From positions 39,618,001 through 39,682,000 of the forward strand of contig OZ024748.1 of assembly GCA_964016885.1 (NCBI GenBank): a DNA stretch of 64,000 bases, written 5' to 3'. Under the pieces are notes generated by a model. The model was given only the letters and a program-made list of their open reading frames with translations, did no database searches and was not told where the DNA came from. Position numbers and translations under genes: made by a program. This document shows positions 9,393 to 54,572 of this stretch, in pieces (within the stretch, counting starts at the first letter, position 1; every line of letters begins with the position of its first letter). The stretch comes from Eledone cirrhosa (lineage: Eukaryota).

Positions 9393-9419
9393 ACAGAAAG
9401 AGAGATAGGTAGATAGATA

Positions 9420-10596
9420 TGTTTCTTTATTAGCCACAGGGGCACAAAAGAAGGGGACAAATACAAAGGGGGAAGTTTACATACAATAAAAACGTGTAAA
9501 ATGTTATCACAAATGCAATTTAAAAAGTTAGTCGATTTTCGCCAATAGAGGGAAACAGTTTATATGGGTAACACATACCCCCGAAAAAATGTGCAACCCT
9601 CATCTCCAGGAGTACGAAGAGTTTGTACTCCTTTCCTCTCCTCCTCCTTTTCCTCAACCTACAGACTGATATAGAGAGAAAGCCCATTCACTCGGACCAT
9701 TCTCGCCACTTTCACCCACCTTTCATAAAACTTGCTGGGGTACAGCACCTCTCTCTCCATCCTGATTCTTCTTCCAAAGTGGTATTTGAAAAAAAGAATC
9801 AGTTGTTGGCCGGAGAGAAAGGTGTCTGACTTCAGCCCTTTCAACCTTGTCCACTATACAACCGCTTTCGCCATAGCTAACACACAAAGGAAGACCGCCT
9901 CTCCTTCGTTTTTGAAGGAGGGTGGCGGTTTGATCATGACAATGGACTCGGCGGTCAACCGGATTGGTCCCACCCGCGACAATAGTCGTTCTACATAGCA
10001 CCACAGGTCAGTGACGCCCGGGCAGTGTATGAATGCGTGCGCGACGGTTTCTTCGACTCGCACGCACCTCGGACAGATCGTTTTTGCAGGGTCCCTGCCC
10101 GGGCGCCCATGTCTGTAGAGCTTGTCTCGAACTGGTAGAGCTCCTCGGTAGCATTGCCAGGCCAGGGACTTTTGGAAGTTGTCCATCGGTCCCGGGCGGA
10201 AGGTCCTACCGAACAGACTGGCCAGTTCATCTTCCTCTACGCCTAAAGTTTTCCCGAGCGCGTCGTCGCACTTGCTGCGGATCAACCCTCTATAGAATGA
10301 CGAAGTGGAGTCTCCACTGATCGCCGGGTCCGCCTGCCAGAGGGCTGTGAGCGCCTGAGCACATTCGATGTGCCAGTCGCCCATTTTCCTCGGTCTTTGC
10401 TTGACCCAGGACTGCAGCTCGGTCAGCGAGACGAGTCGTGGGAAGGCTCGCCTCACGAACGGGGCCCACACCGGTTGTCCGGTGAGGAATACGTAGAGAT
10501 GCCGCAGCCTGAGCGCGTGTTTGCGCATCGTCAACCACGGCATCCCCAGCCCTCCGTTAGAAGGGTGTTGGCAGCAGATGGATCTTCTCACCAAAA
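9420..10596 (-). mobile_element. Second, 5'-truncated copy of a related L1/Tx1 LINE (ORF2 C-terminus plus 3' UTR)
   Basis: HPSNGGLGMPW..GRTFRPGPMDNFQKSLAWQCYRGALPVRDK..CPRC is homologous to 4696-5583. It has the same tttattagccaca 3' end with a (GATA)-type tail at 9395-9420. Confidence 0.92.
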
Positions 10597-10930
10597 GGTA
10601 AGTCCTACGCAATCTATGTTTACATGCAGTAACCAGTTCATCTTTCTTGTTTAGGAGTTGGTCCGTCGAAAACAGCATTTGTAAAGTTTCCTCCGAGCAT
10701 AAATTGCACGGACGTTAGGACCAGGTTGTTTGTGATGTTCCTAGGATGGTTTGATCGGCGGTGGATGTAGTGCAGGTTGTCATTAGGTTTCCTGTATGGG
10801 TAGTACAGGTCGTTTTCGAGGTCGAGGGTCACGTCCAGGAAGTTTACTCGGGTCAGGGACGTTTGTAGGGTTATTTTAAATCCCCAGTCGCGGAAGAAGC
10901 TGATTAATTGTTTCCGGACCCGATCTGTAC
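10597..10930 (-). mobile_element. Penelope-like element fragment (RT end and GIY-YIG C-terminus, internally deleted)
   Basis: FLDVTLDLENDLYYPYRKPNDNLHYIHRRSNHP, then LLNKKDELVTACKHR; these are typical PLE motifs. Confidence 0.8.
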
Positions 10931-14260: not shown

Positions 14261-15130
14261 ATGGCTCCTTACTGTCAGTCCGGTATTTGTGCAGGTTGTT
14301 TTTCTCCATCTGAACACAGTCCTCTATGCTGATAAGACCTCTTCCACCTTCAGATCTCCTTAAGTAGAGTCTATCGACATCACTCCTCTTGTGGAACATG
14401 TTGTAGATAGTCAATAGCTTCCTAGTCTTTCTATCCATTTCTTTTTGTTCAGCAACATTCCATTTCAGAATAGACACAGCTCAGGAATTCACTGCACTTA
14501 TGATATTCCTACTGTTCAGGTGTGACTTTAATACGCTCCTTACTCTCCTTATGTACTCAGATCTTATCAATTCCTTCATTTTTTTGTTCTTGATGTCATC
14601 TGCCTCCAGAACACCTAAATATTTGTATCCTTCTTCAGTGTCAATTTCCTTTATCATGTCATCTGTTGGTACCTGGATTCCGTTGCTTCTGCTCATTTTA
14701 CCCCTCTTCATCACTAGGACTCCACACTTATTAATACCAAATTGCATACATATATCATTGCTGAAAATACGGACAGTGTCAACAAGCACATCCAACTCCT
14801 TCTCACTCTTCCCGAAGAGCTTAAGTTCGTCCATGAAGAGGAGGTGATTGATGGTAAGCTCTCCTTTTCCCAACTTGTATCCTGCTCTCACTTTTCGCAA
14901 TATAATGGTCAGGGGTATCAAGGCAAGGACAAACAGCAGAGGGGACAAACTCTCTCCCTGGAAGATACCTCTTTTGATCTTCACGCCTCCCAAGGATTCT
15001 ACACTCGATGTTAACTCTGTTTCTCAGGACTTCATACTTTTGCTCAACAACTGTCTGATGTTATCTGCCACCTTGAAGATCTCTAGACTTTTGGTGATCC
15101 AAGAATGAGGTACCATGTCGAAAACCTTTT
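14261..15130 (-). mobile_element. R4/Dong-like non-LTR retrotransposon RT fragment
   Basis: KRGIFQGESLSPLLF, NHLLFMDELKL, YKYLGV and RLYLRRSEGGRGL; in-frame stop at 14481. Confidence 0.82.
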
Positions 15131-15164: not shown

Positions 15165-15350
15165 CCAGTGGATTGGCAGTATCGGTAGAGGGTCGGACGC
15201 CCTGCTTTATAGCAAAGAGTTACGGCCCTTTATGTTCTGAGTTCAAATCCCGCCGAGGTTAACTTTGCCTTTCATCCTTTCGGGGTCGATAAAATAAAGT
15301 ACCAGTAATACACTGGGATAATTGCTGGCCTTGTGCCAAAAGTAGAAATT
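15165..15350 (+). mobile_element. SINE, family 1, with target-site duplication
   Basis: Full SINE with B-box-like gagttcaaatcc; ttattaaaattgcc occurs on both sides. Confidence 0.88.
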
Positions 15351-15599
15351 ATTAAAATTGCCTTTTCTATATCCTACACTGTTACGTAAACCCCCCCTTT
15401 TCTATCGCCTCTCTCTCTTTCTTTCTGCCTCAATACATACATACAGACAGACACACACACGCTATCTATCTATGACATAATTATTCCACGATCGACAAGT
15501 AACAATACACAATAGCGCACTTATGACAGGCCAGAGATTTACGTGGGAGGTGATCTACCATAAATTTGTAAGAAAATCTGTTGTTGTCTAGCATGTTCG

Positions 15600-15838
15600 T
15601 ATAGTACTCAGTACTATACGAACATGCTAGACAACAACATGACGGTAACATAGACAGCATAGAAATTAGAATAATATCTAAACATAGAAATGACCCAGCA
15701 GATAGGCAAATCAGAGAGGCCAGTGAAATAGAAATTAGAAGACCAAAGCTAAACAGAAAGAATGAATCGAATAACAACAACACCCAAACAAACAACACTG
15801 ACCTAAGAGAAGTGTAAATAAGTAAATAAAATAAGATT
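15600..15838 (+). mobile_element. PLE/GIY-YIG-like 3' fragment; a longer copy lies at 39966-40460
   Basis: Reads YEHARQQHDG..IEIRIISKHRNDPADRQIREASEIEIRRPKLNRKNE, resembling the end of a GIY-YIG domain. Near-identical direct copy at about 39970. Confidence 0.65.
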
Positions 15839-15839
15839 A

Positions 15840-16590
15840 ACGTATATTCAAACAGAGAGTGAAAGAGCGAGTAGTCTGGCTGCTTTGAACCACTCCCTAT
15901 AACGTATATTCAAACAGAGAGTGAAAGAGCGAGTAGTCTGGCTGCTTTGAACCACTCCCTATATTAGACTGTCTCTAAAGTTATAAACGGAGAAAGAGAA
16001 ATCATCGTATAGACAAAGAGAGAGTGAAAGAGCAACGAGTGAAAGAGCGAGTAGTCTGGCTGCTTTGAACCACTCCCTATATTAGACTGTCTCTAAAGTT
16101 ATAAACGGAGAAAGAGAAATCAACGTATAGACAAAGAGAGAGTGAAAGAGCAACGAGTGAAAGAGCGAGTAGTCTGGCTGCTTTGAACCACTCCCTATAT
16201 TAGACTGTCTCTAAAGTTATAAACGGAGAAAGAGAAATCAACGTATAGACAAAGAGAGAGTGAAAGAGCAACGAGTGAAAGAGCGAGTAGTCTGGCTGCT
16301 TTGAACCACTCCCTATATTAGACTGTCTCTAAAGTTATAAACGGAGAAAGAGAAATCAACGTATAGACAAAGAGAGAGTGAAAGAGCAACGAGTGAAAGA
16401 GCGAGTAGTCTGGCTGCTTTGAACCACTCCCTATATTAGACTGTCTCTAAAGTTATAAACGGATAAAGAGAAATCAACTTATAGACAAAGAGAGAGTGAA
16501 AGAGCAACGTATAGACAAAGAGTGAGTGCTATAAACGGAGAAAGAGAAATCAACGTATAGACAAAGAGTGAGTGAAAGAGCGAGTGTGAA
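15840..16590. repeat. 118-bp tandem repeat (about 5 units plus partial units) in the Helitron 5' region
   Basis: attagactgtctctaaag recurs at 15963, 16081, 16199, 16317 and 16435. Confidence 0.92.
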
Positions 16591-16861
16591 ATTTTTTTAA
16601 TTAAAGATAATTTCAATAGAATTAGTATTCTCTCTTTAATTTAATATAATTTCAATAGAATTAGTAAATTCTCTCTTTAATTTAATATAATTTCAATAGA
16701 ATTAGTATAGTGTCTGTTTCACATTACTTCCCTTCCACTCCCATTACAGGGAATTCTTTTTCAGCTAGCCATTAACTAAGTGCTGTAATTTGATATCTTC
16801 ATTTCGTCTGTCCTTATTTTACTGACCTGGACACATACGTGGACCGACATCATTCCAAGAA

Positions 16862-18694
16862 TTGAAAACAGTAAACGGTCAAGTATGTGCCACTTATCGT
16901 GAAGCTTGCCAAGAATTAAATCTTCTTGAAAATGATGGACATTGGGACACTTCACTCGCTGATGCATCGAATACTGCTCGACCAAAGCAAATACGCACAT
17001 TATTCTCAATAATATTGACAACGTGCTTCCCATCAAATCCAAAAGATCTTTGGGAAAAATATAAAAACTACATGAGTGAAGACATCCTACATCGTTTGCG
17101 TGCAACAAATCAAAATATGAATATTCAATTCACACAAAATGTGTATAATGAAGCATTGGTTTCCATTGAGGTCATATGTTTAGCAATCGCTAACAAAACA
17201 TTGGTACAATTGGGAATGCCTGCGCCGAATCGATCTGTAAACGACATTTTCGATCGTGATTTGCAACGAGAAACAAACTTTGATGTCGCCGAATTGGGTA
17301 CATTTGTTCAAACGAATCTTGCCAAATTGCTACCAGAACAACGCATAGTATATGACCAAATTATGCAGGCAACTATAAGTCAAAGCGGCACATTGTATTT
17401 TATAGATGCGCCAGGTGGTACAGGCAAAACTTTTCTCATTTCACTTATTTTGGCAACTATACGATCAGAAAATAATATTGCACTGGCAATCACATCATCT
17501 GGAATTGCGGCAACTCTTTTAGATGGTGGCCGAACAGCACATTCAGCCCTGAAATTGCCATTGAATATGCAAATCGCTGAGACATCAACATGCAATATTA
17601 CCAAACATTCTGGTATAGGTAAAGTACTCCAATCATGTAAAATCATTATATGGGACGAATGTACTATGGCGCACAAAAAATCATTGGAAGCGCTTAATAA
17701 TACGCTAAAAGATTTGAAAGGAAATGAACACCTCTTCGGTGGCACACTCATTTTATTGTCTGGTGATTTTCGACAAACTCTACCAGTTATACCGCGATCA
17801 ACACCCGCTGATGAGCTTAATGCATGTCTCAAATCATCAGTTTTATGGCGACACGTACAGAAATTAACTTTAAAAAACAATATGCGTGTACAACTACAAA
17901 ATGACGCATCCGCTGAACGTTTCACAAAACAATTGCTGGATATTGGGAATTGGAAAATGGTAATCGATGATTCCACAAAATGTATCACATTGCCAACAAA
18001 CTTCTGTAGAATCACGGCAACCAGAGACGAACTGATTCACAAAGTGTTCCCAAATATTGCGCAGCATTACAAAAATCATCAGTGGCTCAGTGTACGTGCT
18101 ATATTAGCAGCCAAAAACACCGATGTCAATGCCATTAATTTCAGCATTCAAAACGAAATACCAGGCGAAGAGACAACGTATAAGTCCATCGATACTGTAA
18201 TGAATCAAGACGAAATTATCAATTATCCAATTGAATTCTTGAATTCACTTGATTTGCCAGGCATGCCACCGCACATTTTAACATTGAAAATTGGCGTGCC
18301 TATCATCCTTCTCCGAAACATCAATCCACCACAACTTTGCAACGGTACCAGACTTTCAGTGAAAAAGACGATGAACAATATCATCGAGGCTACAATTTTA
18401 AATGGAAAATTTAAAGGAGAAGATGTACTCTTGCCACGCATCCCAATAATTCCAACAGATACGCCATTCGATTTCAAACGTTTGCAGTTTCCGGTGCGAC
18501 TCGCCTTTGCAATGACTATCAACAAAGCACAAGGACAATCGCTACAAGTGTGTGGACTAAATTTAGAAAATCCATGCTTCTCACATGGACAGCTGTATGT
18601 GGCTTGCTCACGCGTCGGTAAACCTTCTGATTTATTCGTGTACGCACCAGAAGGAAAAACAAAAAACATTGTGTATCCAAAAGCACTTCAGTAA
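16862..18694 (+). CDS. Helitron RepHel C-terminal PIF1-like SF1 helicase (5'-truncated, no ATG start)
   Basis: DAPGGTGKT (Walker A), IIWDEC, LSGDFRQTLP, LRNINPPQLCNGTRL, FAMTINKAQGQS and HGQLYVACSRV. Confidence 0.93.
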   Translation: MKTVNGQVCATYREACQELNLLENDGHWDTSLADASNTARPKQIRTLFSIILTTCFPSNPKDLWEKYKNYMSEDILHRLRATNQNMNIQFTQNVYNEALVSIEVICLAIANKTLVQLGMPAPNRSVNDIFDRDLQRETNFDVAELGTFVQTNLAKLLPEQRIVYDQIMQATISQSGTLYFIDAPGGTGKTFLISLILATIRSENNIALAITSSGIAATLLDGGRTAHSALKLPLNMQIAETSTCNITKHSGIGKVLQSCKIIIWDECTMAHKKSLEALNNTLKDLKGNEHLFGGTLILLSGDFRQTLPVIPRSTPADELNACLKSSVLWRHVQKLTLKNNMRVQLQNDASAERFTKQLLDIGNWKMVIDDSTKCITLPTNFCRITATRDELIHKVFPNIAQHYKNHQWLSVRAILAAKNTDVNAINFSIQNEIPGEETTYKSIDTVMNQDEIINYPIEFLNSLDLPGMPPHILTLKIGVPIILLRNINPPQLCNGTRLSVKKTMNNIIEATILNGKFKGEDVLLPRIPIIPTDTPFDFKRLQFPVRLAFAMTINKAQGQSLQVCGLNLENPCFSHGQLYVACSRVGKPSDLFVYAPEGKTKNIVYPKALQ

Positions 18695-18882
18695 AACAAA
18701 TTAAATGTTCTTATAACGAATTTTCTTTAAATTCGTCAGTCATTCAGTCATTTAAAGATAAATGTTAAAATCTAAAAAATAGAAACTAAATTACAGAAGT
18801 TTTTAAATAACGATTAAAATGTTAATATTATTCTTTTCTAAATAAGCTTTTTAACACTGAGCGAAGCCGGGTAGCTCCGCTA

Positions 18883-18927
<45 letters not shown>

Positions 18928-21904: not shown

Positions 21905-22179
21905 TATATACATATTTATATAAATAGATAAAAATATATACATGCTGTTATTAATTCAAATATAATTTAAGGGTTACGAAGGATATGTGTTTACATTTTC
22001 AATATATAGTTAAGAAAAAAAAGTCCAAGATGGCACGGATGGGGTGGTCAGGAAGGAGACGTCCATACCATAATGCCAATGTAAGACAGTAGCTATTGTC
22101 ATTTTATCGTGTCAGTTGATATTACGTTAAATATAATTCCGGTTTTATCTGTGATTTACTGATATAGCTTACGTCAATT

Positions 22180-22572
22180 GTTTCTTCTTCGTCCAGTTAT
22201 TTCTGAGACGGTCGTGGGGTCAGAGTCCTCCAACACTCCTTCCAGCAAGTCATGTCAGAAGCAACCGTTTCCAACTGATCCGGCTGGATCTCCCAAGCAT
22301 GACCAGCCAAGCTCATGGATCTTAGCAAACCATCTTACTCAGGGTGGGTCGATACCTGGGTTTCTTGTCGGTTTGTTTTGCCCGTAAAATCTGTCCGGTG
22401 ATTCTTTCCTGAGACAATCTAACCACATGTCCATAGTATCAAAGCTGTGATCTCTCAATTCGGAGAAGTAGCGGCTCTACCTGGAGTAACTCTCTGATCT
22501 CAGAACTACGCACTCTATCGAGTAACATTACTCCAAAGACCCTTCAGAGGAATCCCATTTCGGCCGCTTGTA
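22180..22572 (-). mobile_element. RTE-like LINE 3' fragment (mirror copy at 39188-39580)
   Basis: Similar to 25700-26110, whose minus strand translates to RTE-type ORF2 C-terminal sequence. Confidence 0.65.
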
Positions 22573-22638
22573 TTGTTTCTATTTACGAAATAACACAACT
22601 GAGGATTTTAATAGTGTCAAATTTTCGTTTCCTTTCAG

Positions 22639-24136
22639 TTCCGACTTTATCGAACCATTTAAAATACATATTGTAGAGAACATAAAGATCAATAACCGTA
22701 ACGACAGATTAATTGCTCTCGAGAAAGCTGACTACAACATCTTTAAATTACAACCTGAAGATGTCATGATCTATTTCCTTACAGATGCTGGCACTAATGC
22801 TTTCAGTCTTGAACAAAACGCAAGAATATGGATGGGTGATGAAAGTTATGCCGGATCTACTAGTTATGAAACTTTGAAAGACACGGCAACATATATTTCT
22901 GGTTTTGAAAACATTCTGCCAGTTTTTTCTGAATGTATCAGCGAAGAGATTGTCGCTTCTTATTTCACAAAAGCTGGAGATAAGGTTATTGGGAATACTT
23001 TTACTTATTCACTTGAGAAGCATATAAAGGATCTTCATGCTGAAGCGATTTCTTTGTTAGATTGGTCAGATAATAATTTTGCAGGAAATCTAGATGTTCA
23101 AGCACTCAAAAACTTATTGGCAGAAAATGATAAAAAATCAATTTCCTTTCTTATAATGAATGTACCAGCAAAAAGTAGTGGTGGCCAACCAGTTAGTATG
23201 TCAAACATGAAAGCAGTTTCTGATCTCTGTCGCGAACATTCGATTCCGATATACATCGAAAGTAGTATGTATGGTGAGAACTGTTGGCTCAATAAAATGT
23301 ACGAAGAGGCTTACTTCAATAAATCGTTAGTTGAGATATCGCAAGAAATGTTTTCTTTTTTCGATGGCTGCATTATTTCTGCTAAAAGAGATGGTAGAAG
23401 TGAGATTGGAAGTGTCATTTGTCTTCAAGACAAAGAAATTACTCGAAAATTGGGCACTGTTATTACTCTTAAAGCAGGTTTCATAACTTATGGTGGGATG
23501 GCTGGCCGAGATATGGAAATGGTAGCGGTTGGCATGCGAGGTGCTTTGGATGAACAACTGCAAGACTATCGACAAAAACAATTGGCATTTTTCAAAAGAT
23601 CCCTGAAGGAATTTGGTGTTCCGATTGTGGAGCCAGTCGGTTGTAATACCATCTTCATTGATGCCGAAAATGCTTTTCCTAACTGTAAACACGCGTTTTA
23701 TCCAGCCTGGTCTTTATCTTGTGCTGTTTATATCGTCGGGGGTATCCGATGCGCAGAGTTTGGTCAAGTTACTCGTCCAACAAGTAGCTTACCCACTAAT
23801 CATTTTCTGAAAGACCGAGAATTACTAAAGCTTGAGATACCTCGTTTCATCTATACGACTTCTCACATTTTCTATGTTGCCTATGTTTTCGCTCAGCTTA
23901 TTTCACATGAAATGCTTTCTGGAATGAAACTTATTGCCTGCTCCGAAGACCAAATAAAAATCGTGAAAATAAAAATGAAACCAAATCATTCTCTGGAATA
24001 TGACGATATCCAACTCCTTCCGGTACAAGACTGTAAACACATTCACTTCTTTAAATACATATCTAATCAAAGAGTTATGAAAAGAAATTCAATCGCCGAG
24101 GCATCTTCTATATGGTCAGTCGACATTCATTCTTAA
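22639..24136 (+). CDS. Tryptophanase/TPL-family paralog A; predicted non-catalytic (PLP Lys to Arg) partner subunit; single large exon
   Basis: Family motifs EPFKIH, ADYNIFKL, FLTDAGT, GDESYAGS, GGQPVSMSN, GFITYGGMAGRDME, GGIR..EFG and IPR..YT. The frame is open for about 498 codons. Acceptor ttttcgtttcctttcAG at 22637-38; the ORF-track TTG start lies in the intron/RTE remnant. Confidence 0.9.
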
Positions 24137-24321
24137 AAAGGGGACAAACACGTTAGATAATGTAATCGTAGACACAAAAAAGACGTGGTAGTCATGATTG
24201 GAACGTCCCTGATCATATAATTGCTCTGTCAATGTTGACCTGAACTTAAACAACAGCAACAACAACACAGAGATTTTTTTTTGTTGCACCCAAACAGGGT
24301 TCTGTAAATTCTAGATTGTAC

Positions 24322-24475
24322 ATTCTTTTATTCTTTTACTGGTGTCAGTCATTAGACTGTGGCCATGCTGGGGCACTGTTCTTTTACTGGTTTCAGTTAT
24401 TAGACTGTGGCCATGCTGGGGCAGTGGTCTTTTACTGGATTCAGTGATTCTACTGTGGCCATGCTAGGGCACCAT
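24322..24475. repeat. About 47-bp tandem x3 derived from a SINE-like end
   Basis: cttttactgg..tcagt.att..actgtggccatgct.gggca is repeated three times. Confidence 0.8.
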
Positions 24476-24669
24476 TTGCTTGTTAGTTTATTTTTTTAAA
24501 TTGGTTTTATTACCAACAATTAAACTATTGAACATGATTTTGAATAGAAAGTAGGGGAAAACATTGACAGTCTTGTCAAATATAGTTTTAATATTATGTT
24601 AACAAACCATGAAATAAAATATCTTTGGAAACTTAAATATATTTCTTGTGATGTTCTTTTTACAATTAT

Positions 24670-24790
24670 TTCACCAATATATAATTCATATGAAACATTG
24701 TGATGTATGTTTCACCAATATATAATTAATATCAAACATTGTGATGTATGTTTCACCAATATATAATTAATATGAAATATTGTGGTGTGG
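24670..24790. repeat. About 41-bp tandem repeat x3
   Basis: tttcaccaatatataatt.atat.aaacattgtgatgtatg is repeated. Confidence 0.85.
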
Positions 24791-25699
24791 TTGTAATAAT
24801 TCGGGGAAAGATGGTACAACGAATATTAGATAAACTAAGGTGAAAAGATACAACAAATCAGCATTTTAAACTTTCGTCTTATATTTCTTGATATTTTGAG
24901 GTGAAAAACTTTTTTCAAAAGAAAGAAATGGAGTCTGGTGTTGTCAACGCCCAAAGAAATGTTGATAAACGATTTATTTACATCAACTTATTATTGATGG
25001 TGACATGCTTTTGTTTCACTTTAAAAAAATATTATAATAAGGTGACATACTAATATAAATATTATTTTAAAAATAAAAAACAAATCTTGAAACATCTTAT
25101 GACTGTGGCAGTGACAAGGTTTATAGAGTTAAGAAGCCTCACAACCATCTGATTTCCGGTTCCTTTAGACTACATGGCATCTTAAAGAAGTGTCTTTCTG
25201 CCATAGGTTCGAGTCAACAAAACGGACAGTTTGCCCTTTTCGGCTTGGCGGGCAGCAGGGCCTGGACTGGTGGTGGAATGCACCAGGTTGGCACTTGCAA
25301 TTAATTGTAATATAACTGATAGATGTTGTTTCAATTCTGTGCCATTAATTGTAGATCAACGACAACATTGTTGCAGTAGTTATTTCAATTCTGTGCCATT
25401 AATAATCTGTGTTACGAACACTACATAAATAGTCTACAGGTGTTACCTTGATTTCACCAGATGGAAATATCAAAATCAAAATTGATTATGTAATTGTTCC
25501 AAACAATATTCTCGAAATGCTGAAAAACTGCCATGTGTATATTTCTACAGATATTGGTGTAGAATATTTCAACTTAGAGACTGGAAAACACAAACGTTAT
25601 TATCATAAATGTACTGTGATTGTGTGAGGCTTAATTATTAAAGATTGTAAAATCCATTCCCAGTGAATTGGTCAAACTATATCCAAGAATTTTCTTTTT

Positions 25700-26465
25700 C
25701 TTCCTTCACTTATTCCTGAGAAGGTCGTGGGGGAAGAGTCTTCAAACACTCCTTCTAGCAGGTCCTGTCAGAAGCAATCATCTCCAACTGATTTGGCTGG
25801 ATCCCCAAGCGAGACCTGCCAATCTTATGGATGTTATCCAACTATCTTGCTCAGGGTCTACTCCTGGGTCTCCTGCTGGTTGGTTTTGCCAATAAAATCT
25901 GTCCAGTATTTCCTTGGACATTCTAGCCATATAATATGTAATATCAGAGCTATGATTTCTCAATTCGGAGAAGTATCAGTTCTAACAGGAGTGATTCACA
26001 AGTCTCCAAGCTACACACACTATCGAGTAATGATACTCCAAATACCCTTTTGGAGGAACCCCATTTTGGCCACTTGTATTTGCGATTGTATTCTTTCAGT
26101 CATTACACAAGATTCATGACCATAGGTAAGGGTTGGCACGAAAACCGAATTGAAGATAGTGAGTTTGGTGTTTACACCTACCTCCCTTCTTCTGATTACC
26201 AAATGCCAAAGCTGTCACATTACTGCAGCAGCTCCTGCAATTATTGCACTTAATTCGGCCTCCTGCCTTCCATCACTCGTGACCATGGCCCTGAGATACT
26301 TGAACTTCTCTACCAACTTCAGTAGAACTCCCTTCGCATGTAGAATGCACTGCGCAGGCTTCCTTTAGAAGACAAGTGTCTCAGTTTTCACAGCACTGAA
26401 TTTCATTCCAGCCATGCAGCACTCTGCATCAAACCTATCAAGTGCAAGTCAGAGATCACCTTTTG
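25700..26465 (-). mobile_element. RTE-clade LINE 3' fragment
   Basis: TKLTIFNSVFVPTLTYGHESCVMTERIQSQIQVAKMGFL is a typical RTE ORF2 C-terminal region. Confidence 0.8.
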
Positions 26466-26584
26466 TTGAGTTTGTAACACCATGTTGTCTGCAAATTCCA
26501 GCCACAAATTGCTGGCCATGTGCCTAAAGTAGAAAACCTTATTCCTGCAAAAGGTCCTGTTAATCCTTAATTATTATTAAATAT

Positions 26585-26740
26585 AACATATATACAAACT
26601 GGAGCTGTGTCAGGGACCAGTCCGCAAACATATATACAAACTGGAGCTGTGTCAGGGACCGGCCTGCAAACATATATACAAACTGGAGCTGTGTCAGGGA
26701 CCAGTCCGCAAACATATATACAAACTGGAGCTGTGTCAGT
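26585..26740. repeat. 42-bp tandem repeat, about 3.7 units
   Basis: aacatatatacaaactggagctgtgtcagggaccagtccgca. Confidence 0.92.
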
Positions 26741-27084
26741 GACAATGTCTGCAAACAATGAGTTGAACATTTTAACACCAAGAAATATATGATAAGTAAA
26801 AACTACAGTTAACAGATTTTTGTGTTTTGAATTACTAAAGTGACTCGTGTACAATGTAATTGGTATATATATATATACTCACTCTATATGTATGTGTTTT
26901 TATATAAATATGTAAATAGTTGTGTATATATATATATATATATATAGTTGTTATATAGTAAGGTGTATTATTGGTTGTGTCATACGGTCCAATAAACTTT
27001 TGTTAGCAATATTAAGTTCTCCACGCTTTTGTATATCCCAATTCCATTTAAGGGAACAGCTAGATGATGTAAAATGGAGTATTT

Positions 27085-28325
27085 GTATCAAAATAAAGAT
27101 CCGAAAGCATGGTATAAATTTCCAATCATTTTAATCACAACACGTTTCAATAAGGGATAGATTACGCGCATTCACCATTACTTTAGAATACCCTAACCAT
27201 AGAGTTCTCTCAGTTAGGAAATAGACGTATTACACACTCAGTTAAGAACGTTACGCTCTTTATACATAATTCTACACAGTACCCGGTTTCTTTAGACACA
27301 GAGTTGCCACAGTTATGACCAGTCATGATCTTGTCGATTGAATACTACACTAGGTTTTGGTCTGTGATCCTCTAACCAAGGAGTGCTCACAGTTTGCTGA
27401 ATGGACAATACCACTTACACGCCATCAATGGAATTACACACATCCCCGGTGTTTTGTTATTTTATTTTGTGTTGGGTAACACACCTCCACCACTCAGACA
27501 CTTATCTTAAAGGCCCGTGGGCCCATTTGACGGGAAAACGCACACACTGACAGCTTAACTCAAATACCCAACCCTATATGGAGCCCCTTGTTGGCCTACA
27601 TGGCAGGTGCTTGCACGCACAGACTCGGGGACCCAGATTCTCAACGGGACAACGGCACATATAGAGTTCGATACGAGCTGACTACTTGCTCTACACATGG
27701 ATGTGTATATACCAAAGCATACACTATTTAGACGATACAGATGTTACAATTCAATCGATACACGTATAGCAGAACGTTGAAGGGAATTTACTTGCGTGTG
27801 TATAGTGTTGTGGTTGACCCAATTTTTTTCTAATTTACATCGTGAAAATTGAGATTTGACCAATATAACGTTTGTTGTTTTGTAACCTAACTTTTGGTGC
27901 ATACTGTGTTGCTGTGTATATTTTTTTTTCTCTGACCTCGCGTCGGTGTGTGTGAGTGTGTGTCCACTCAATAACACTAATTGTGACGGACCAAAATTCT
28001 ACAGATCTGGTGCTGAGATTAGACCTGTCCAGCGTCTTTTACAGCTATTGAGAGATAGAGACTTGATAGATTTATGACCCTGACTGAAGACAATAGCAGT
28101 TGTCGTGTTTTGGCTGCTGATTATTCATATGGGGAACAAAACTCCAGTGAGTGAACATCGTTAGTTTTTCCTCCCTCATATCAAAGATTTGAAGACATTT
28201 CATTATTCACCTGATGAGATCAGTGATAATCGATCATGACCACACGATCGATCCCTTATTGAAACATGTGTCGTGATTAAAATGATTGGAAATGTATACC
28301 ATGCCTTCGGATCTTTATTTTGATA
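27085..28325 (+). mobile_element. Non-coding Penelope-derived element with about 75-bp inverted ends and a hammerhead
   Basis: 27085-27160 is the reverse complement of 28250-28325 (atcaaaataaagatccgaa..ccaatcattttaatcac..gtttcaataagggat). Confidence 0.7.
28200..28285 (+). ncRNA. Type I hammerhead ribozyme
   Basis: tcac-CTGATGA (28211-17), long stem II, GAAA (28261-64), c-atgt-g-TC, then gtga. Stem I is tcac/gtga, extended by tcatt/aatga; the cleavage triplet is GUC at 28270-72. Confidence 0.75.
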
Positions 28326-28362
28326 TATATATATAAAACTGAATTTACATTTTTTTTTCCAG

Positions 28363-29754
28363 TCTCCAAGCAATGGAACCTTACAGGATTAAGGTATTTT
28401 ATCCAGTCAATTTAATCCCCAAGTCTGACCGTATTGCATGTCTAAAAGCTGCCAACTACAACCCCTTTCTACTTAAATCGAAAGACATATTTATAGATTT
28501 GCTAACAGATTCTGGTACAGGAAGTCAAAGCAGTGCCCAGTGGTCGGCTATGACTAAAGCCGGCTATTCAACTATTAATTCCGAATACGTTAAGGAATTT
28601 GTACGTACAATTCAACACATTACCAATTTCAAACATGTATTTCCAGTTCATCAAGGTCGAGGAGCCGAAGGTTTGTTGGCAAAACTCCTACTGAATAAAG
28701 AGAGTGTTGTACTGAGTAATTCTCTGTTTGACACAACACGAGCACACGTTGAGTCATCTGGTGCAATTGGAATAGATTTGGCAACAAAGTCTTCAAAATT
28801 CTTAGGTGATGCCGATGTGGAAAAATTTGAAGAAACACTGGATGAATATGGTTCTAGAGTTCATCTTGTAATAATAACCTGCACCAATAATGTGGTAGCC
28901 GGAGCTCCTGTGAGCATGCAAAATATAGAAATCATAACAAAATTATGTCGAAACAAGAATATCCCAGTTATAATGGACGCATGCCGTTTTGTTGAAAATG
29001 CTTATTTTATCAAGACCTTAGACGAAAAATATTCTAAACACACAATCTTAGATATTGCCAGCGAAATGTTTTCTTATTTTGATGGTGCAACTATGTCTTT
29101 AAAGAAAGATGGTATGAGCAATGAAGGTGGGTTTATAGCTTTCAACAACGACAAATGGGCCACCAAAATATTTGACATAATCGAATATAAAAGTGGTTAT
29201 TCAACTTACGGGGGAATAACTGGATCAAATCTTGTAGCATGTACTGTCGGAATTTCTGAGGCTATGAACGAAAATTACCTCCGATCAAGAATCTATCAGG
29301 CTAAATTACTGGCTGATTTCTTGGAAGATAATAATATTCCCGTATTTAAACCAGTAGGGGCCCATGCCGTCTACGTGAAAGCAAACAAAGTCTTGCCACA
29401 CCTTGATTTCTTGAAGTATCCAGCATGGTCCCTTAATTGTGCCGTATATATATCGAAGGTGGTATTCGATATGGAGAAATTGGCAATATAATGTTTGGTG
29501 AAAATTCAGATGGAACTAAACAAATTCATCCCTTTGAATATGTGCGTTTGGGTTTACCCAGAAGAACCTATACGGTCAACCATCCGCATTTTGTGGCCAA
29601 AACTTTTGGTTTTGTTGCCAAAAAAGCCCATTTAATCCACGGAATGGAAATTGTCAAATCTTCGCATCTCCTAAGACATTTCACAATTTGGATGAGACCA
29701 TTAAATGAATACCACCTTGAAAAGAATAATAATCAGAAAAAAATAAACTGTTGA
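28363..29754 (+). CDS. Tryptophanase-like paralog B; carries the PLP-binding residues; 2-bp frameshift at about 29445-29453 (mutation or sequence error)
   Basis: MEPYRIK, DLLTDSGT, HQGRGAE, FDTTRAH, TNN..GAPVSM, MDACRF, SLKKDG (Lys 29105-07), then in the shifted frame IEGGIR.GEIG, VRLGLPRRTY and LRHFT. Acceptor ttttttttccAG at 28361-62; ATG at 28373 in gcaATGg context. Confidence 0.9.
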
Positions 29755-32160: not shown

Positions 32161-32924
32161 ATATATATGGATAATAGGATGAATTTGGTACAACCAATAA
32201 ATTATAAAGGCAACAAATATTTTCTTGTTTTAATATTGCAGTTTATACATATCTTAAGAAGCAGTATAAGAAAAGCTTACATTTCATTTTCAAACTTAAG
32301 TAAAAAATAAAATATATATTTATTTTCAATTTTTAAAATGCGAGCAAAAACATAAAATCGATTTCAATATTCATCACACACACATATATATACATGTATA
32401 TTATTTGGAAAAAAAAAGGGGGTGGGGTAAAGTTTTATACAAAAAAATGATGACCAGTTCGAATATTTGAGAGAAAACTCAAGTATATTCGAACTGCTCA
32501 GATATTAAAAAAAATTTTTTTATTAATATTCAATATTTAACATCTAATATTTGATAAAATTGTTTTACCAATCGAAACCAGTTATATTTAATGCAACAAT
32601 TATAAAATTATTCATTCTGTCAGATTAAAGAAAAAATAATCTTTTAATATTCCCTGAACTTTGGCAATTTCAACCCCCTACCAACAGTACTGCTGGTTCA
32701 CTCTGGGTCACAGCGTCTGAGACAAGTCAGAGCGTAGTGTCCAAATAATTATTTTAAATTATTCTATGAAAAATAAAAATTAATTACACGTATCTAAATA
32801 TCACAATTTGTTTTGTTGGATGATCTACCAACTTTGCCATCAACCAGTCATTTCTATCAAATAATTTCCAATAATATTTGTGAATATGAAAAGGTAAAGA
32901 AAGATCGATATATGTGTGTGTATA

Positions 32925-35900
32925 TATAACGTCTGAAGAGCTCAGGCTGTCATACCTGATAGTCCTCAGTGAAATATGTATAACGTCTGAAGAGCTCAGG
33001 CTGTCATAACTGATAGTCCTCGGTGAAATATGTATAACGTCTGAAGAGCTCAGGCTGTCATAACTGATAGTCCTCAGTGAAATATGTATAACGTCTGAAG
33101 AGCTCAGGCTGTCATAACTGATAGTCCTCAGTGAAATATGTATAACGTCTGAAGAGCTCAGGCTGTCATAACTGATAGTCCTCAGTGAAATATGTATAAC
33201 GTCTGAAGAGCTCAGGCTGTCATAACTGATAGTCCTCAGTGAAATATGTATAACGTCTGAAGAGCTCAGGCTGTCATAACTGATAGTCCTCAGTGAAATG
33301 TGTATAACGTCTGAAGAGCTCAGGCTGTCATAACTGATAGTCCTCAGTGAAATATGTATAACGTCTGAAGAGCTCAGGCTGTCATAACTGATAGTCCTCA
33401 GTGAAATGTGTATAACGTCTGAAGAGCTCAGGCTGTCATAACTGATAGTCCTCAGTGAAATATGTATAACGTCTGAAGAGCTCAGGCTGTCATAACTGAT
33501 AGTCCTCAGTGAAATATGTATAACGTCTGAAGAGCTCAGGCTGTCATAACTGATAGTCCTCAGTGAAATATGTATAACGTCTGAAGAGCTCAGGCTGTCA
33601 TAACTGATAGTCCTCAGTGAAATGTGTATAACGTCTGAAGAGCTCAGGCTGTCATAACTGATAGTCCTCAGTGAAATGTGTATAACGTCTGAAGAGCTCA
33701 GGCTGTCATAACTGATAGTCCTCAGTGAAATATGTATAACGTCTGAAGAGCTCAGGCTGTCAAAACTGATAGTCCTCAGTGAAATGTGTATAACGTTTGA
33801 AGAGCTCAGGCTGTCATAACTGATAGTCCTCGGTGAAATGTGTATAACGTCTGAAGAGCTCAGTCTGTCATAACTGATGGTCCTCAGTGAAATGTGTATA
33901 ACGTCTGAAGAGCTCAGGCTGTCATAACTGATAGTCCTCAGTGAAATGTGTATAACGTCTGAAGAGCTCAGGCTATCATAACTGATAGTCCTCAGTGAAA
34001 TATGTATAACGTCTGAAGAGCTCAGGCTGTCATAACTGATAGTCCTCAGTGAAATGTGTATAACGTCTGAAGAGCTCAGGCTGTCATAACTGATAGTCCT
34101 CAGTGAAATATGTATAACGTCTGAAGAGCTCAGGCTGTCATAACTGATAGTCCTCAGTGAAATGTGTATAACGTCTGAAGAGCTCAGGCTGTCATAACTG
34201 ATAGTCCTCAGTGAAATGTGTATAACGTCTGAAGAGCTCAGGCTGTCATAACTGATAGTCCTCAGTGAAATATGTATAACGTCTGAAGAGCTCAGGCTGT
34301 CATAACTGATAGTCCTCAGTGAAATGTGTATAACGTTTGAAGAGCTCAGGCTGTCATAACTGATAGTCCTCGGTGAAATGTGTATAACGTCTGAAGAGCT
34401 CAGTCTGTCATAACTGATAGTCCTCAGTGAAATGTGTATAACGTCTGAAGAGCTCAGGCTGTCATAACTGATAGTCCTCAGTGAAATGTGTATAACGTCT
34501 GAAGAGCTCAGGCTGTTATAACTGATAGTCCTCAGTGAAATATGTATAACGTCTGAAGAGCTCAGGCTGTCATAACTGATAGTCCTCAGTGAAATGTGTA
34601 TAACGTCTGAAGAGCTCAGGCTGTCATAACTGATAGTCCTCAGTGAAATATGTATAACGTCTGAAGAGCTCAGGCTGTCATAACTGATAGTCCTCAGTGA
34701 AATGTGTATAACGTCTGAAGAGCTCAGGCTGTCATAACTGATAGTCCTCAGTGAAATATGTATAACGTCTGAAGAGCTCAGGCTGTCATAACTGATAGTC
34801 CTCAGTGAAATATGTATAACGTCTGAAGAGCTCAGGCTGTCATAACTGATAGTCCTCAGTGAAATATGTATAACGTCTGAAGAGCTCAGGCTGTCATAAC
34901 TGATAGTCCTCAGTGAAATGTGTATAACGTCTGAAGAGCTCAGGCTGTCATAACTGATAGTCCTCAGTGAAATGTGTATAACGTCTGAAGAGCTCAGGCT
35001 GTCATAACTGATAGTCCTCAGTGAAATGTGTATAACGTCTGAAGAGCTCAGGCTGTCATAACTGATAGTCCTCAGTGAAATGTGTATAACGTCTGGAGAG
35101 CTCAGGCTGTCTGTCATAACTGATAGTCCTCGGTGAAATGTGTATAACGTCTGAAGAGCTCAGTCTGTCATAACTGATAGTCCTCAGTGAAATGTGTATA
35201 ACGTCTGAAGAGCTCAGGCTGTCATAACTGATAGTCCTCGGTGAAATATGTATAACGTCTGAAGAGCTCAGGCTGTCATAACTGATAGTCCTCAGTGAAA
35301 TATGTATAGCGTCTGAAGAGCTCAGGCTGTCATAACTGATAGTCCTCAGTGAAATATGTATAACGTCTGAAGAGCTCAGGCTGTCATAACTGATAGTCCT
35401 CAGTGAAATGTGTATAACGTCTGAAGAGCTCAGGCTGTCATAACTGATAGTCCTCAGTGAAATATGTATAACGTCTGAAGAGCTCAGGCTGTCATAACTG
35501 ATAGTCCTCAGTGAAATATGTATAACGTCTGAAGAGCTCAGGCTGTCATAACTGATAGTCCTCAGTGAAATATGTATAACGTCTGAAGAGCTCAGGCTGT
35601 CATAACTGATAGTCCTCAGTGAAATGTGTATAACGTCTGAAGAGCTCAGGCTGTCATAACTGATAGTCCTCAGTGAAATGTGTATAACGTCTGAAGAGCT
35701 CAGGCTGTCATAACTGATAGTCCTCAGTGAAATGTGTATAACGTCTGAAGAGCTCAGGCTGTCATAACTGATAGTCCTCAGTGAAATGTGTATAACGTCT
35801 GGAGAGCTCAGGCTGTCTGTCATAACTGATAGTCCTCGGTGAAATGTGTATAACGTCTGAAGAGCTCAGTCTGTCATAACTGATAGTCCTCAGTGAAATG

Positions 35901-37477
35901 TGTATAACGTCTGAAGAGCTCAGGCTGTCATAACTGATAGTCCTCGGTGAAATATGTATAACGTCTGAAGAGCTCAGGCTGTCATAACTGATAGTCCTCA
36001 GTGAAATATGTATAGCGTCTGAAGAGCTCAGGCTGTCATAACTGATAGTCCTCAGTGAAATATGTATAACGTCTGAAGAGCTCAGGCTGTCATAACTGAT
36101 AGTCCTCAGTGAAATGTGTATAACGTCTGAAGAGCTCAGGCTGTCATAACTGATAATCCTCAGTGAATTGTGTATAACGTCTGAAGAGCTCAGGCTGTCA
36201 TAACTGATAGTCCTCAGTGAAATGTGTATAACGTCTGAAGAGCTCAGGCTGTCATAACTGATAGTCCTCAGTGAAATATGTATAACGTCTGAAGAGCTCA
36301 GGCTGTCATAACTGATAGTCCTCAGTGAAATGTGTATAACGTTTGAAGAGCTCAGGCTGTCATAACTGATAGTCCTCGGTGAAATGTGTATAACGTCTGA
36401 AGAGCTCAGTCTGTCATAACTGATAGTCCTCAGTGAAATGTGTATAACGTCTGAAGAGCTCAGGCTGTCATAACTGATAGTCCTCAGTGAAATGTGTATA
36501 ACGTCTGAAGAGCTCAGGCTGTCATAACTGATAGTCCTCAGTGAAATATGTATAACGTCTGAAGAGCTCAGGCTGTCATAACTGATAGTCCTCAGTGAAA
36601 TGTGTATAACGTCTGAAGAGCTCAGGCTGTCATAACTGATAGTCCTCAGTGAAATATGTATAACGTCTGAAGAGCTCAGGCTGTCATAACTGATAGTCCT
36701 CAGTGAAATGTGTATAACGTCTGAAGAGCTCAGGCTGTCATAACTGATAGTCCTCAGTGAAATATGTATAACGTCTGAAGAGCTCAGGCTGTCATAACTG
36801 ATAGTCCTCAGTGAAATATGTATAACGTCTGAAGAGCTCAGGCTGTCATAACTGATAGTCCTCAGTGAAATATGTATAACGTCTGAAGAGCTCAGGCTGT
36901 CATAACTGATAGTCCTCAGTGAAATGTGTATAACGTCTGAAGAGCTCAGGCTGTCATAACTGATAGTCCTCAGTGAAATGTGTATAACGTCTGAAGAGCT
37001 CAGGCTGTCATAACTGATAGTCCTCAGTGAAATATGTATTACGTCTGAAGAGCTCAGGCTGTCATAACTGATAGTCCTCAGTGAAATGTGTATAACGTCT
37101 GGAGAGCTCAGGCTGTCTGTCATAACTGATAGTCCTCGGTGAAATGTGTATAACGTCTGAAGAGCTCAGTCTGTCATAACTGATAGTCCTCAGTGAAATG
37201 TGTATAACGTCTGAAGAGCTCAGGCTGTCATAACTGATAGTCCTCGGTGAAATATGTATAACGTCTGAAGAGCTCAGGCTTTCATAACTGATAGTCCTCA
37301 GTGAAATATGTATAGCGTCTGAAGAGCTCAGGCTGTCATAACTGATAGTCCTCAGTGAAATATGTATAACGTCTGAAGAGCTCAGGCTGTCATAACTGAT
37401 AGTCCTCAGTGAAATGTGTATAACGTCTGAAGAGCTCAGGCTGTCATAACTGATAGTCCTCAGAGAAATGTGTATAG
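32925..37477 (+). repeat. 54-bp satellite, about 84 units, each a hammerhead-ribozyme-like motif
   Basis: Unit: acgt-CTGAAGA-gctcaggctgtca-taac-tgatagtcctcagt-GAAA-tatgta-TA. Confidence 0.97.
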
Positions 37478-37697: not shown

Positions 37698-38293
37698 TAA
37701 ATAAATGGAAACTATATTTATAAAACTATATTTATAAACTATAGTTTTATAAATATAGTTTTTTAAATATAGTTTTATAAATATAGTTTATAAATATAGA
37801 TTTATAAATTATATTTATAAAACTATATTTATAAAACTATATTTATAAAACTATATTTATAAAACTATATTTATAAAACTATTTTATAAAACTATTTTAT
37901 AAAACTATATTTATAAAACTATATTTATAAAACTATATTTATAAAACTATATTTATAAAACTATATTTATAAAACTATTTTATAAAACTATTTTATAAAA
38001 CTATTTTATAAAATTATATTTATAAAACTATATTTATAAAACTATATTTATAAAACTATATTTATAAAACTATTTTATAAAACTATTTTATAAAACTATT
38101 TTATAAAACTATTTTATAAAACTATTTTATAAAATTATATTTATAAAACCATATTTATAAAACCATATTTATAAAACTATATTTATAAAATTATATTTAT
38201 AAAACCATATTTATAAAACTGTATTTATAAAACTATATTTATAAAACTATAGTTTATAAATATAGTTTTATAAATATAGTTTCCATTTATTTA
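37698..38293. mobile_element. AT-rich foldback-like element with internally repetitive (13-bp) inverted termini
   Basis: taaataaatggaaactatatttataaaactatatttataaactatag at the left end, with its exact reverse complement at the right end; the interior is (tatatttataaaac)n. Confidence 0.75.
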
Positions 38294-39121
38294 GTAATAA
38301 CAGTGCCCAATTTTCGAGTAATTTCTTTGTCTTGAAGACAAATGACACTTCCAATCTCACTTCTACCATCTCTTTTAGCAGAAATAATGCAGCCATCGAA
38401 AAAAGAAAACATTTCTTGCGATATCTCAACTAACGATTTATTGAAGTAAGCCTCTTCGTACATTTTATTGAGCCAACAGTTCTCACCATACATACTACTT
38501 TCGATGTATATCGGAATCGAATGTTCGCGACAGAGATCAGAAACTGCTTTCATGTTTGACATACTAACTGGTTGGCCACCACTACTTTTTGCTGGTACAT
38601 TCATTATAAGAAAGGAAATTGATTTTTTATCATTTTCTGCCAATAAGTTTTTGAGTGCTTGAACATCTAGATTTCCTGCAAAATTATTATCTGACCAATC
38701 TAACAAAGAAATCGCTTCAGCATGAAGATCCTTTATATGCTTCTCAAGTGAATAAGTAAAAGTATTCCCAATAACCTTATCTCCAGCTTTTGTGAAATAA
38801 GAAGCGACAATCTCTTCGCTGATACATTCAGAAAAAACTGGCAGAATGTTTTCAAAACCAGAAATATATGTTGCCGTGTCTTTCAAAGTTTCATAACTAG
38901 TAGATCCGGCATAACTTTCATCACCCATCCATATTCTTGCGTTTTGTTCAAGACTGAAAGCATTAGTGCCAGCATCTGTAAGGAAATCGATCATGACATC
39001 TTCAGGTTGTAATTTAAAGATGTTGTAGTCAGCTTTCTCGAGAGCAATTAATCTGTCGTTACGGTTATTGATCTTTATGTTCTCTACAATATGTATTTTA
39101 AATGGTTCGATAAAGTCGGAA
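38293..39121 (-). pseudogene. Inverted, 3'-truncated duplicate of tryptophanase-like paralog A
   Basis: Near-identical to 22639-23467 and keeps the acceptor (cctctcAG at 39123-22). It stops after GTVIT at the foldback element. Confidence 0.93.
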
Positions 39122-40912: not shown

Positions 40913-41010
40913 ATTTCGAAAAAAATATTGAAAGGAAGATTTTCTTACAGATCGGAGAAGTCCATGGCTGTTTCTTGTTGGTTTGGCAGATGTTTCGTAA
41001 AATTGATGTT

Positions 41011-41405
41011 ATTTATGGTAGATCACCTCCCACGTAAATCTCTGGCCTGTCATAAGTGCGCTATTGTGTACTGTTACATGTCGATCGTGGAATAATTATG
41101 TCATAGATAGATAGCGTGTGTGTGTCTGTCTGTATGTATGTATTGAGGCAGAAAGAAAGAGAGAGAGGCGATAGAAAAGGGAGGGTTTACGTAACAGTGT
41201 AGGATATAGAGAAGGCAATTTTAATAATTGTTTCTAATTTTGGCACAAGGCCAGCAATTATCCCAATGTATTACTGGTACTTTATTTTATCGACCCCGTA
41301 AGGATGAAAGGCAATGTTAACCTCGGCGGGATTTGAACTCAAACCGTAAGGGGACGTAACTATGCTAGAAAGCATGGCGTTCAACCCTCTGCCAATCCAC
41401 CGCCC
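41011..41405 (-). repeat. Inverted copy of 15165-15565 (unique flank plus family-1 SINE at 41228-41405)
   Basis: atttatggtagatcacctcccacgtaaatctctggcc is the reverse complement of 15529-15565. The 5' part of the SINE differs from the 15165 copy. Confidence 0.88.
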
Positions 41406-49857: not shown

Positions 49858-49877
49858 AAATATACCAATAATAATAA

Positions 49878-49993
49878 TCTATACTATAAAAGAGAAGCTC
49901 TTTGTCCCTCTGTCTGTCCGTCTCAACATATAGGTAGAAGTGAAATGGGAAGAACTGGATTGTCGTTGCTAAGAGAGTGAGAGAGAGAGAGAG

Positions 49994-53382: not shown

Positions 53383-54572
53383 TCAATTTCCCCCTCGTCC
53401 TTCTGCATATGAAAGTCTGCTGTCCAGGTTGGTGGTTTGCGACTTCTTTGCGATCTCCGCAGTGTTGGGGCGGCACTTTGGGTTTCCTCTTCCACGGAGT
53501 CCGTTGACACAGTGATTCTACGGACATCCAGGACATGACGTGGTACTCCGTCCAAGGACACATTGTTCTGGGAATTTACGGCCGTCACCGTTCCCCTTCC
53601 CCATTGAGATGTGCAACGTGCATATGGGGGCTTAACCCAGACTTCTTCGCCCACCTGCACGAATGCACTCTCTCTCCCCACTGGCTGTTGTGATGGCGTG
53701 CACGGGTGCCGCCACTCGTATCTGAATACTGCTCTGTGTGGCACCGATTCCTTGACCTGTCTCACCCGAGGGGACATGTTGTACCAGAACACTGCCTCCA
53801 TTGGTGAGATATGGCCGTGCTCCGCCATTGCCTTGATCGTCCGGTGGTGTCGCTCTACAATTCCATTCCCGCTCGGCCTGTGCGCTGCTCTGAAGAAACG
53901 GTCCACCTTCCATCCATCGAGCATCTCCCTCAGCGCCTCCGAGCGCAACGCTGCGCTGTTGTCCATCAGCAGTTCGTCCACAGGGTCCCACTCCAAGAAC
54001 ACCTCTCTCAACGTCCGCATGATTTCCTCGGCCGTTCCAGTCTTCATCTCCCTCCATATCGCCATCCGTCCTGATCCACAGTCGACCATCGAGAGGTACG
54101 TTCCCTGTCGGTAGTGCGTTACATCCACCGCCAATCGCTTCCAGTCGCGATCCACCGGGAGGCTTCCCGTTTCGTGCACACCCGGGGCGGGATCAATGGA
54201 CTGACATCGGACGCAGCCTCTAACCACCCTTTGAACACTGTGTCTGTTAACGTCCGAGTCGATTCTCCTGGCTAGGAACAGGCTCCTATCCACTCCCATG
54301 TGGTGCATGTCATGCAATCCTTTCAGATCCGACTCGGTCAGCCGACACACGGCAGCTATCTCATCATCTACCTCCTCCGGTGCTTCCATCCAGGCTTTAT
54401 TCACCCTAGTTAAGACGTCCGCCCTATTTTTCTCTGAGAGCACGAAAACTACACTCAGCCTCAGGTCGAACTCGGTGACCAGCTCTCCTAAAGTTCCCAG
54501 GCGGCGCTTTATCAGCATCTCCGCCGCCCCTCTCGTTCGCACTCTCTTCTCACTGGTGAGCACTGATCTCAC
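53376..54572 (-). pseudogene. Gypsy integrase portion of pol
   Basis: HHCC zinc-binding and D-D-E core motifs. Confidence 0.85.

What the first reader, a model, noticed from the sequence alone, without database searches (positions are those of the whole stretch)
22620..28375. Homologous phase-2 splice acceptor at the same codon in both paralogs
Seen: A reads polypyrimidine-AG|t TCC GAC TTT ATC GAA CCA (xSDFIEP) and B reads polypyrimidine-AG|t CTC CAA GCA ATG GAA CCT (xLQAMEP). Both acceptors lie 13 nt before the conserved Glu-Pro codons although the proteins are highly diverged. Inference: the intron predates the A/B duplication, so the duplication and divergence took place in the eukaryotic genome. 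A has no in-frame ATG near its N-terminus and needs an upstream coding exon.
Basis: partly seen in the sequence, partly recalled or inferred. Interest (0 to 1): 0.7.

Follow-up and report, generated by a model that had tools for sequence, protein, structure and literature searches.

The report
One octopus gene, two half-enzymes
The two matching splice sites are real sequence features and likely let one short shared first exon be joined to either of two duplicated exons, so that one octopus gene would make both complementary halves of a tryptophan-splitting enzyme; this pairing is likely already published for cephalopods, and the copy in this window is likely a broken one.

Summary
Confirmed: both AG acceptors end at 22638 and 28362, 13 nt before the conserved Glu codon; comparable sites occupy 140 of 127,940 positions. 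A and B are tryptophanase-family exons in an octopod tandem array (10 A, 9 B). They are most likely alternative last exons of one gene rather than two genes. RefSeq isoforms X1/X2 of two Octopus species share an identical 6-residue start. The matching 17-nt coding exon lies once per unit, upstream of A, and in 0 of 9 A-B gaps. A lost the PLP lysine and B the catalytic tyrosine, which predicts an obligate heteromer. I recall this as published (Yuasa 2023; citation seen only). This window's unit lacks the exon-1 ATG and B is frameshifted. No spliced reads were obtained. The scan reached the same reading on another unit of this array (e1-8673821).

The parts
15446..15567 (+). Remnant of the shared first exon of this unit: 5' part kept, about 60 nt including the start codon deleted; donor GT kept at 15568-15569
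   Evidence: neither of the 2 ATGs in 15301-15567 reads in frame into A or B
22619..22638 (+). Splice acceptor of exon A (polypyrimidine tract + CAG), phase 2
   Evidence: junction position matches RefSeq isoform X1 proteins P0002 and P0240
22639..24136 (+). Exon A: tryptophanase-family body, no PLP lysine (K257R), keeps Tyr71 and Glu69; open to its stop
28343..28362 (+). Splice acceptor of exon B (T-run + CCAG), phase 2
   Evidence: matches RefSeq isoform X2 proteins P0121 and P0245
28363..29754 (+). Exon B: tryptophanase-family body, keeps the PLP lysine, lacks Tyr71 and Glu69; in this copy frameshifted in a TA run near 29445-29453 (open frame ends at 29491)
40947..41130 (-). Intact copy of the first exon (17 coding nt at 40965-40949, donor GT at 40948-40947) in an inverted partial duplicate
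38293..39121 (-). Inverted, 3'-truncated copy of exon A with the same acceptor, about 1.8 kb downstream of the intact first exon

Best explanation
The two acceptors are likely the alternative 3' splice sites of one octopod tryptophan indole-lyase gene, in which a first exon with 17 coding bases would be spliced either to exon A or to exon B, giving two subunits predicted to be active only together. Shown: the acceptors, one first exon per unit and none between A and B, in-frame joins that reproduce the RefSeq isoform starts, and complementary residue loss. Inferred: the body exon was duplicated together with its acceptor in a cephalopod ancestor. A then lost the residues its own active site needs, and B lost those lent to the partner's site. 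An A-B dimer would keep one working site, with B giving the PLP lysine and A the tyrosine, and would turn tryptophan into indole, pyruvate and ammonia. The choice between polyadenylating after A and skipping to B would set the subunit ratio. The whole unit was later amplified about tenfold; the window's unit is likely a decayed copy.
For: RefSeq XP_014791032.1/XP_014791033.1 (O. bimaculoides X1/X2) and XP_036366181.1/XP_029647098.2 (O. sinensis X1/X2) share their first 6 residues while the bodies are about 30% identical. The exon encoding those residues, with a GTAAG donor, has 8 exact matches in the 3-Gb genome, all in the array, and 0 for the control pattern. It is intact upstream of A in 6 of 10 units. 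It is absent from 9 of 9 A-B gaps: best 9-10 mismatches of 22, and no ATG-N14-GTRAG. Joining it in frame gave 503-523 aa for A in 6 of 6 units and 468 aa for B in 5 of 5 units computed. Residue table: 5 of 5 A rows keep Glu69/Tyr71 and have K257R, D214E, R217M, N185K; 6 of 6 B rows keep K257, D214, R217, N185, R404 and lack Glu69, Tyr71, Arg297. Lys257 binds PLP and Tyr71 is the general acid (PMC10170061 passages). A loop from the partner subunit takes part in catalysis (PMC12980246 passage). Poly(A)-like hexamers follow both stops.
Against: No spliced read in this species. RefSeq models are predictions and I did not see their read support. An Argonauta gene model (P0001) fuses B to A, and an O. 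vulgaris model (P0241) uses another 5' end for A, so annotation is not unanimous. B has its own Met just before Glu-Pro and could start there. A+B monophyly is only 75/79. In 2 of 10 units no first exon was found, and 2 more lack its ATG. The heteromer's activity is recalled, not tested here.
Confidence: 0.85

Rival explanations
1. A and B are two separate genes here, each with its own first exon; B has a diverged or non-coding first exon between A and B and starts at its own Met. The whole gene, intron included, was duplicated.
For: B has an in-frame ATG 10 nt after its acceptor, and Argonauta and UniRef models start there. In the other cephalopod-like lineage an A-type protein starts MDSANA (P0370) while B types start MNFDEL or MDFNEM (P0123, P0252). 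This suggests separate first exons there or in the ancestor; the species are unknown.
Against: No exon-1-like coding piece in 9 of 9 A-B gaps. Two RefSeq annotations give A and B the same first six residues as isoforms X1/X2. A non-coding first exon was not excluded.
Confidence: 0.1
2. A and B are spliced into one two-domain chain like the bacterial fused tryptophanases, or came in already split by a transfer of such a fusion.
For: Bacterial two-domain proteins show the same complementary loss: the N halves of P0005, P0020 and P0364 lack the Lys, and their C halves lack the Tyr. An Argonauta model is a B-A fusion (P0001).
Against: The fusion halves lie outside the animal clade, and A+N halves is rejected at p-AU 0.0005. 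A ends in a stop in all full copies. Only 2 GTRAG donors lie inside exon A, both mid-gene. The P0001 fusion removes the end of B and looks like a gene-model artefact (inference).
Confidence: 0.03
3. The matching acceptors are chance, and the ORFs are unspliced or bacterial sequence.
For: Each body is a single intron-free ORF about 40-46% identical to bacterial enzymes.
Against: Site frequency is 0.05-0.11% each. Orthologous RefSeq proteins change sequence exactly at these points. The locus sits on a 60-Mb contig among repeats, at 37% GC, and orthologues exist in other octopods.
Confidence: 0.02

Closest known systems
Cephalopod tryptophan indole-lyases (Yuasa 2023, J Mol Evol 91:912, PMID 38007709); citation seen in a reference list, paper not held, content recalled
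   Same: As recalled: two divergent cephalopod paralogues, each inactive alone and active as a heterotetramer, duplicated before octopus and squid split. This matches A/B and the residue table.
   Different: I could not check whether that paper reports the shared first exon. The tenfold tandem array and its decayed units are what I add from this genome.
RefSeq tryptophanase isoforms X1/X2 of Octopus bimaculoides and O. sinensis
   Same: Same two acceptors and the same 6-residue first exon; 75-83% identical orthologues.
   Different: One cluster member per species and type was listed there, against 10 A and 9 B copies here; copy number in those species was not tested.
Bacterial tryptophanase TnaA / tyrosine phenol-lyase (PF01212, NF009709)
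   Same: Fold family and catalytic residues; B carries the tryptophanase-type Asp and His at the TPL Thr124 and Phe448 positions, as chiton, bivalve and most bacterial rows do (the type assignment is recalled).
   Different: These are homotetramers with complete sites (PMC12980246 passage); here neither chain is complete and both score far below the equivalog cut-offs.
Drosophila PGRP-LC (LCx/LCa)
   Same: Duplicated alternative 3' domains on an invariant 5' part; one isoform cannot bind ligand and acts in a heterodimer (PMC2715215 passages).
   Different: A receptor with a large constant part. Here the constant part is 6 residues, the variable exon is the whole enzyme, and both isoforms are defective alone.
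Bacterial two-domain tryptophanase/TPL fusions (P0005, P0020, P0364)
   Same: The same complementary split of Lys and Tyr.
   Different: One chain and an independent origin.

Membership tests
Beta-eliminating lyase / tryptophanase subfamily | PF01212 and NF009709 above curated cut-offs | tested here: met
   A 126 and B 166.5 bits vs 27; A 394 and B 398.7 vs 285
Canonical homomeric tryptophanase TnaA | Equivalog cut-offs (TIGR02617, NF053783) | tested here: not met
   276-325 bits vs 750-826
Canonical homomeric tryptophanase TnaA | PLP lysine and catalytic tyrosine in the same chain | tested here: not met
   A has Arg at Lys257; B has Thr at Tyr71
Cephalopod heteromeric TIL pair | Two paralogous chains with complementary loss of active-site residues, conserved across cephalopod-type sequences | tested here: met
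   5 of 5 A and 6 of 6 B rows; each group 100/100. The definition is recalled from Yuasa 2023.
Cephalopod heteromeric TIL pair | Activity only on co-expression | not testable with these tools
   needs an assay
Constant first exon with alternative duplicated last exons | One donor, two in-frame acceptors of equal phase, no second first exon between them | tested here: met
Constant first exon with alternative duplicated last exons | Both junctions seen in transcripts | tested here: inconclusive
   no junction in the 4 runs laid on A; indirect support from RefSeq isoforms X1/X2 in two species
Bacterial two-domain tryptophanase fusion | Single chain, and common ancestry with the fusion halves | tested here: not met
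   stop after A; p-AU 0.0005

The most novel reading that the evidence does not exclude
Two once separate cephalopod genes for mutually dependent half-enzymes were merged in octopods into one transcription unit: A lost its own first exon and came under a B-type one. Splicing and poly(A) choice alone would now set the subunit ratio and the animal's indole output, and this lineage has amplified the unit about tenfold. This would be an enzyme whose two obligate subunits are whole-enzyme alternative exons behind a six-codon leader.
Probability: 0.3. Interest if true: 0.6.

Novelty: new member of a known kind. Interest (0 to 1): 0.36.

Why it matters
The shared intron position dates the A/B split to an animal genome and rules out a ready-split bacterial import. 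One promoter feeding both halves of an obligate heteromer is a compact test case for how complementary loss after duplication locks two copies together, and bacteria reached the same split independently by fusion. The splice structure is already in RefSeq models and the heteromer appears to be published, so the gain is moderate.

Tried and rejected
Sequencing runs: no RNA holder listed (4 runs, 1 study). Laying them on window 22050-24250 covered almost only the upstream high-copy repeat and showed no junction at 22639; the blank over A is no evidence either way. My first guess that run X4 was RNA was not borne out. A PDB search with full-length B at E 1e-100 was empty because the threshold was too strict. 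Yuasa 2023 is not held by PMID or DOI. Literature searches found no paper describing the shared exon: tryptophanase+octopus (6 papers), tryptophanase+cephalopod (6), tryptophan indole-lyase+cephalopod (1), tryptophanase+alternative splicing+mollus (0), pseudoenzyme+alternative last exon+heterodimer (1, unrelated), plus broader searches. Subscription papers are outside this library, and no supplements were read. No complex prediction was run, since a pass would follow from likeness to solved homodimers. Whether chitons share the intron: two chiton proteins differ just before the Glu-Pro (P0007, P0243) in a way that suggests a nearby phase-0 acceptor, but no DNA was at hand, so it is left open.

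Full report
Observation. Both acceptors are as described. The AG ends at 22638 (A) and 28362 (B); one base then completes a split codon and four codons lead to Glu-Pro, 13 nt in both. The Glu-Pro matches Glu6-Pro7 of tyrosine phenol-lyase. Of 127,940 positions on both strands, 140 are as acceptor-like as A and 67 as B, so a shared offset by chance is about 2e-5 by my estimate.

What the ORFs are. A (22639-24136) and B (28363-29754) are beta-eliminating lyases of the tryptophanase subfamily and are 29% identical to each other. Their closest relatives are octopod proteins: 70-76% for A and 80-83% for B. The window lies on a 60.6-Mb contig of a 3.0-Gb genome. A search of the genome gave 21 matches, all within about 1 Mb: 9 B, 10 A and 2 inverted truncated A (a lower bound). 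I fetched 500 kb of that span, plus the window, covering all matches.

One gene, two last exons. In O. bimaculoides the A-type protein is RefSeq isoform X1 and the B-type is isoform X2, with consecutive accessions. O. sinensis has the same X1/X2 pair. All four begin MDFSDL and diverge right after. The DNA for that start, 17 coding nt followed by GTAAG, occurs here 8 times exactly, all in the array. One further copy has a silent change. It lies intact 6.1-7.0 kb upstream of A in 6 of 10 units, has lost its ATG in 2, and was not found in 2. None of the 9 A-B gaps holds a copy. Joined in a script it reads in frame into A in 6 of 6 units and into B in 5 of 5 computed. The starts equal those of the O. 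bimaculoides RefSeq proteins over 16 of 16 residues for A and 15 of 16 for B. The equal phase of the two acceptors is therefore also a present-day constraint: both must fit one donor.

This window's unit. Its first exon (15446-15567) has lost about 60 nt including the ATG but keeps the donor, and no upstream ATG is in frame. About 3 kb absent from unit 4's intron follows. B has a 2-nt insertion near 29450. The neighbouring unit 65 kb upstream has the same exon-1 deletion and the same B frameshift, so the two are recent duplicates or an assembly duplication. An inverted copy with an intact first exon and a truncated A lies at 41130-38293. Five of 10 units (1, 4, 7, 8, 9) have an intact first exon with full-length A and B.

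History. In a 37-row tree (8 rows of the earlier 35-row set dropped as redundant, 10 added), A-type (5 rows) and B-type (6 rows) proteins are each 100/100. They sit with chiton, abalone and bivalve proteins (97/94), and with sea anemone and Gordionus proteins in an animal clade (99/97). The earlier tree gave the mollusc clade 100/99. A+B as sisters is only 75/79. Bacterial two-domain fusions with the same complementary loss lie outside, and holding A with their N halves is rejected (p-AU 0.0005). The bacterial sample is small (10 single-domain rows drawn from top hits), so the donor of the animal gene is not addressed. Both A and B contain a second, deeper subgroup of unnamed sequences that I take to be other cephalopods (inference). 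Their complete members have Glu-Pro at residue 11, like the octopod isoforms (P0370, P0123, P0252), which supports an old intron. P0370 starts MDSANA, unlike MNFDEL or MDFNEM in the B types. The ancestor may thus have had two genes with separate first exons, but the species are unknown and this is unsettled.

Mechanism. In TPL numbering, all 5 A rows have Arg for the PLP lysine 257 and lose Asp214, Arg217 and Asn185 but keep Glu69, Tyr71, Tyr291 and Arg297. All 6 B rows keep the first set and lose Glu69, Tyr71 and Arg297. Lys257 and Tyr71 roles are from PMC10170061 (passages). The partner-subunit loop is from PMC12980246 (passages). That paper's reference list also cites rescue of activity in hybrid dimers of H463F and Y74F E. 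coli mutants (title only). That Tyr71 is the residue lent by the neighbour is established knowledge, recalled and consistent with that title. An A-B dimer would have one complete site. I had noted A as a pseudoenzyme; the title of note e1-8664826 pointed me to the complementary loss, which I then tested. This species' A also differs from orthologues at Arg100 and at the His of the Phe448 column, so activity here may be lower still.

What is known. [quoted passage not shown] PMC8537960 (passages) lists octopus among animals with tnaA. PMC4962025 (passages) reports no KEGG tryptophanase match in O. bimaculoides. PMC13342648 only cites Yuasa's other paper. PGRP-LC is the nearest design precedent (PMC2715215, passages). 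My searches found no paper on the shared exon, but it is in RefSeq models and may be in the paper I could not read.

Limits. There is no transcript evidence from this species, no assay, and the array's copy number rests on one assembly.

Verdict. A real feature, correctly interpreted in its main inference and better described as alternative last exons of one gene. It is a new member of a known system, interest 0.36.

Noticed in passing
G000:C8:39.12-40.14 Mb: About tenfold tandem amplification of the exon1-A-B unit; 5 of 10 units fully intact, the others losing exon 1, A or B.
   Followed up: partly
proteins P0005, P0020, P0364 (also P0365-P0367, P0371, P0373, P0376 by eye): A bacterial or metagenomic family of two-domain TPL/tryptophanase fusions with a Lys-less N half and a Tyr-less C half; same split as in cephalopods, independent origin. 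In P0368 both halves keep the Lys.
   Followed up: partly
window 15579-18885: A short inverted piece of intron 1, a tandem repeat and a 622-aa ORF (16826-18694) that looks like a Helitron/PIF1 helicase (recognised by eye, not scanned), next to the exon-1 deletion; absent from unit 4's intron.
   Followed up: no
window 22182-22574 and 25695-26080: A very high-copy repeat (summed depth above one million) ends only about 64 nt before A's acceptor; a second copy (77% alike) lies between A and B.
   Followed up: partly
window 37700-38290: An AT-only inverted or palindromic repeat marks the point where the inverted A copy breaks off.
   Followed up: no
proteins P0378, P0388, P0513: Abalone and a second chiton paralogue carry altered substrate-site residues (P0388 has Cys at Tyr71), hinting at other specificities or further half-enzymes in molluscs.
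   Followed up: no
window 4696-10714, 14481-15023, 53376-56002 (minus strand): Fragments that look like LINE and Gypsy-type retroelements, plus long minisatellite arrays at 711-2778, 32784-37165 and 46797-49980 (by eye).
   Followed up: no
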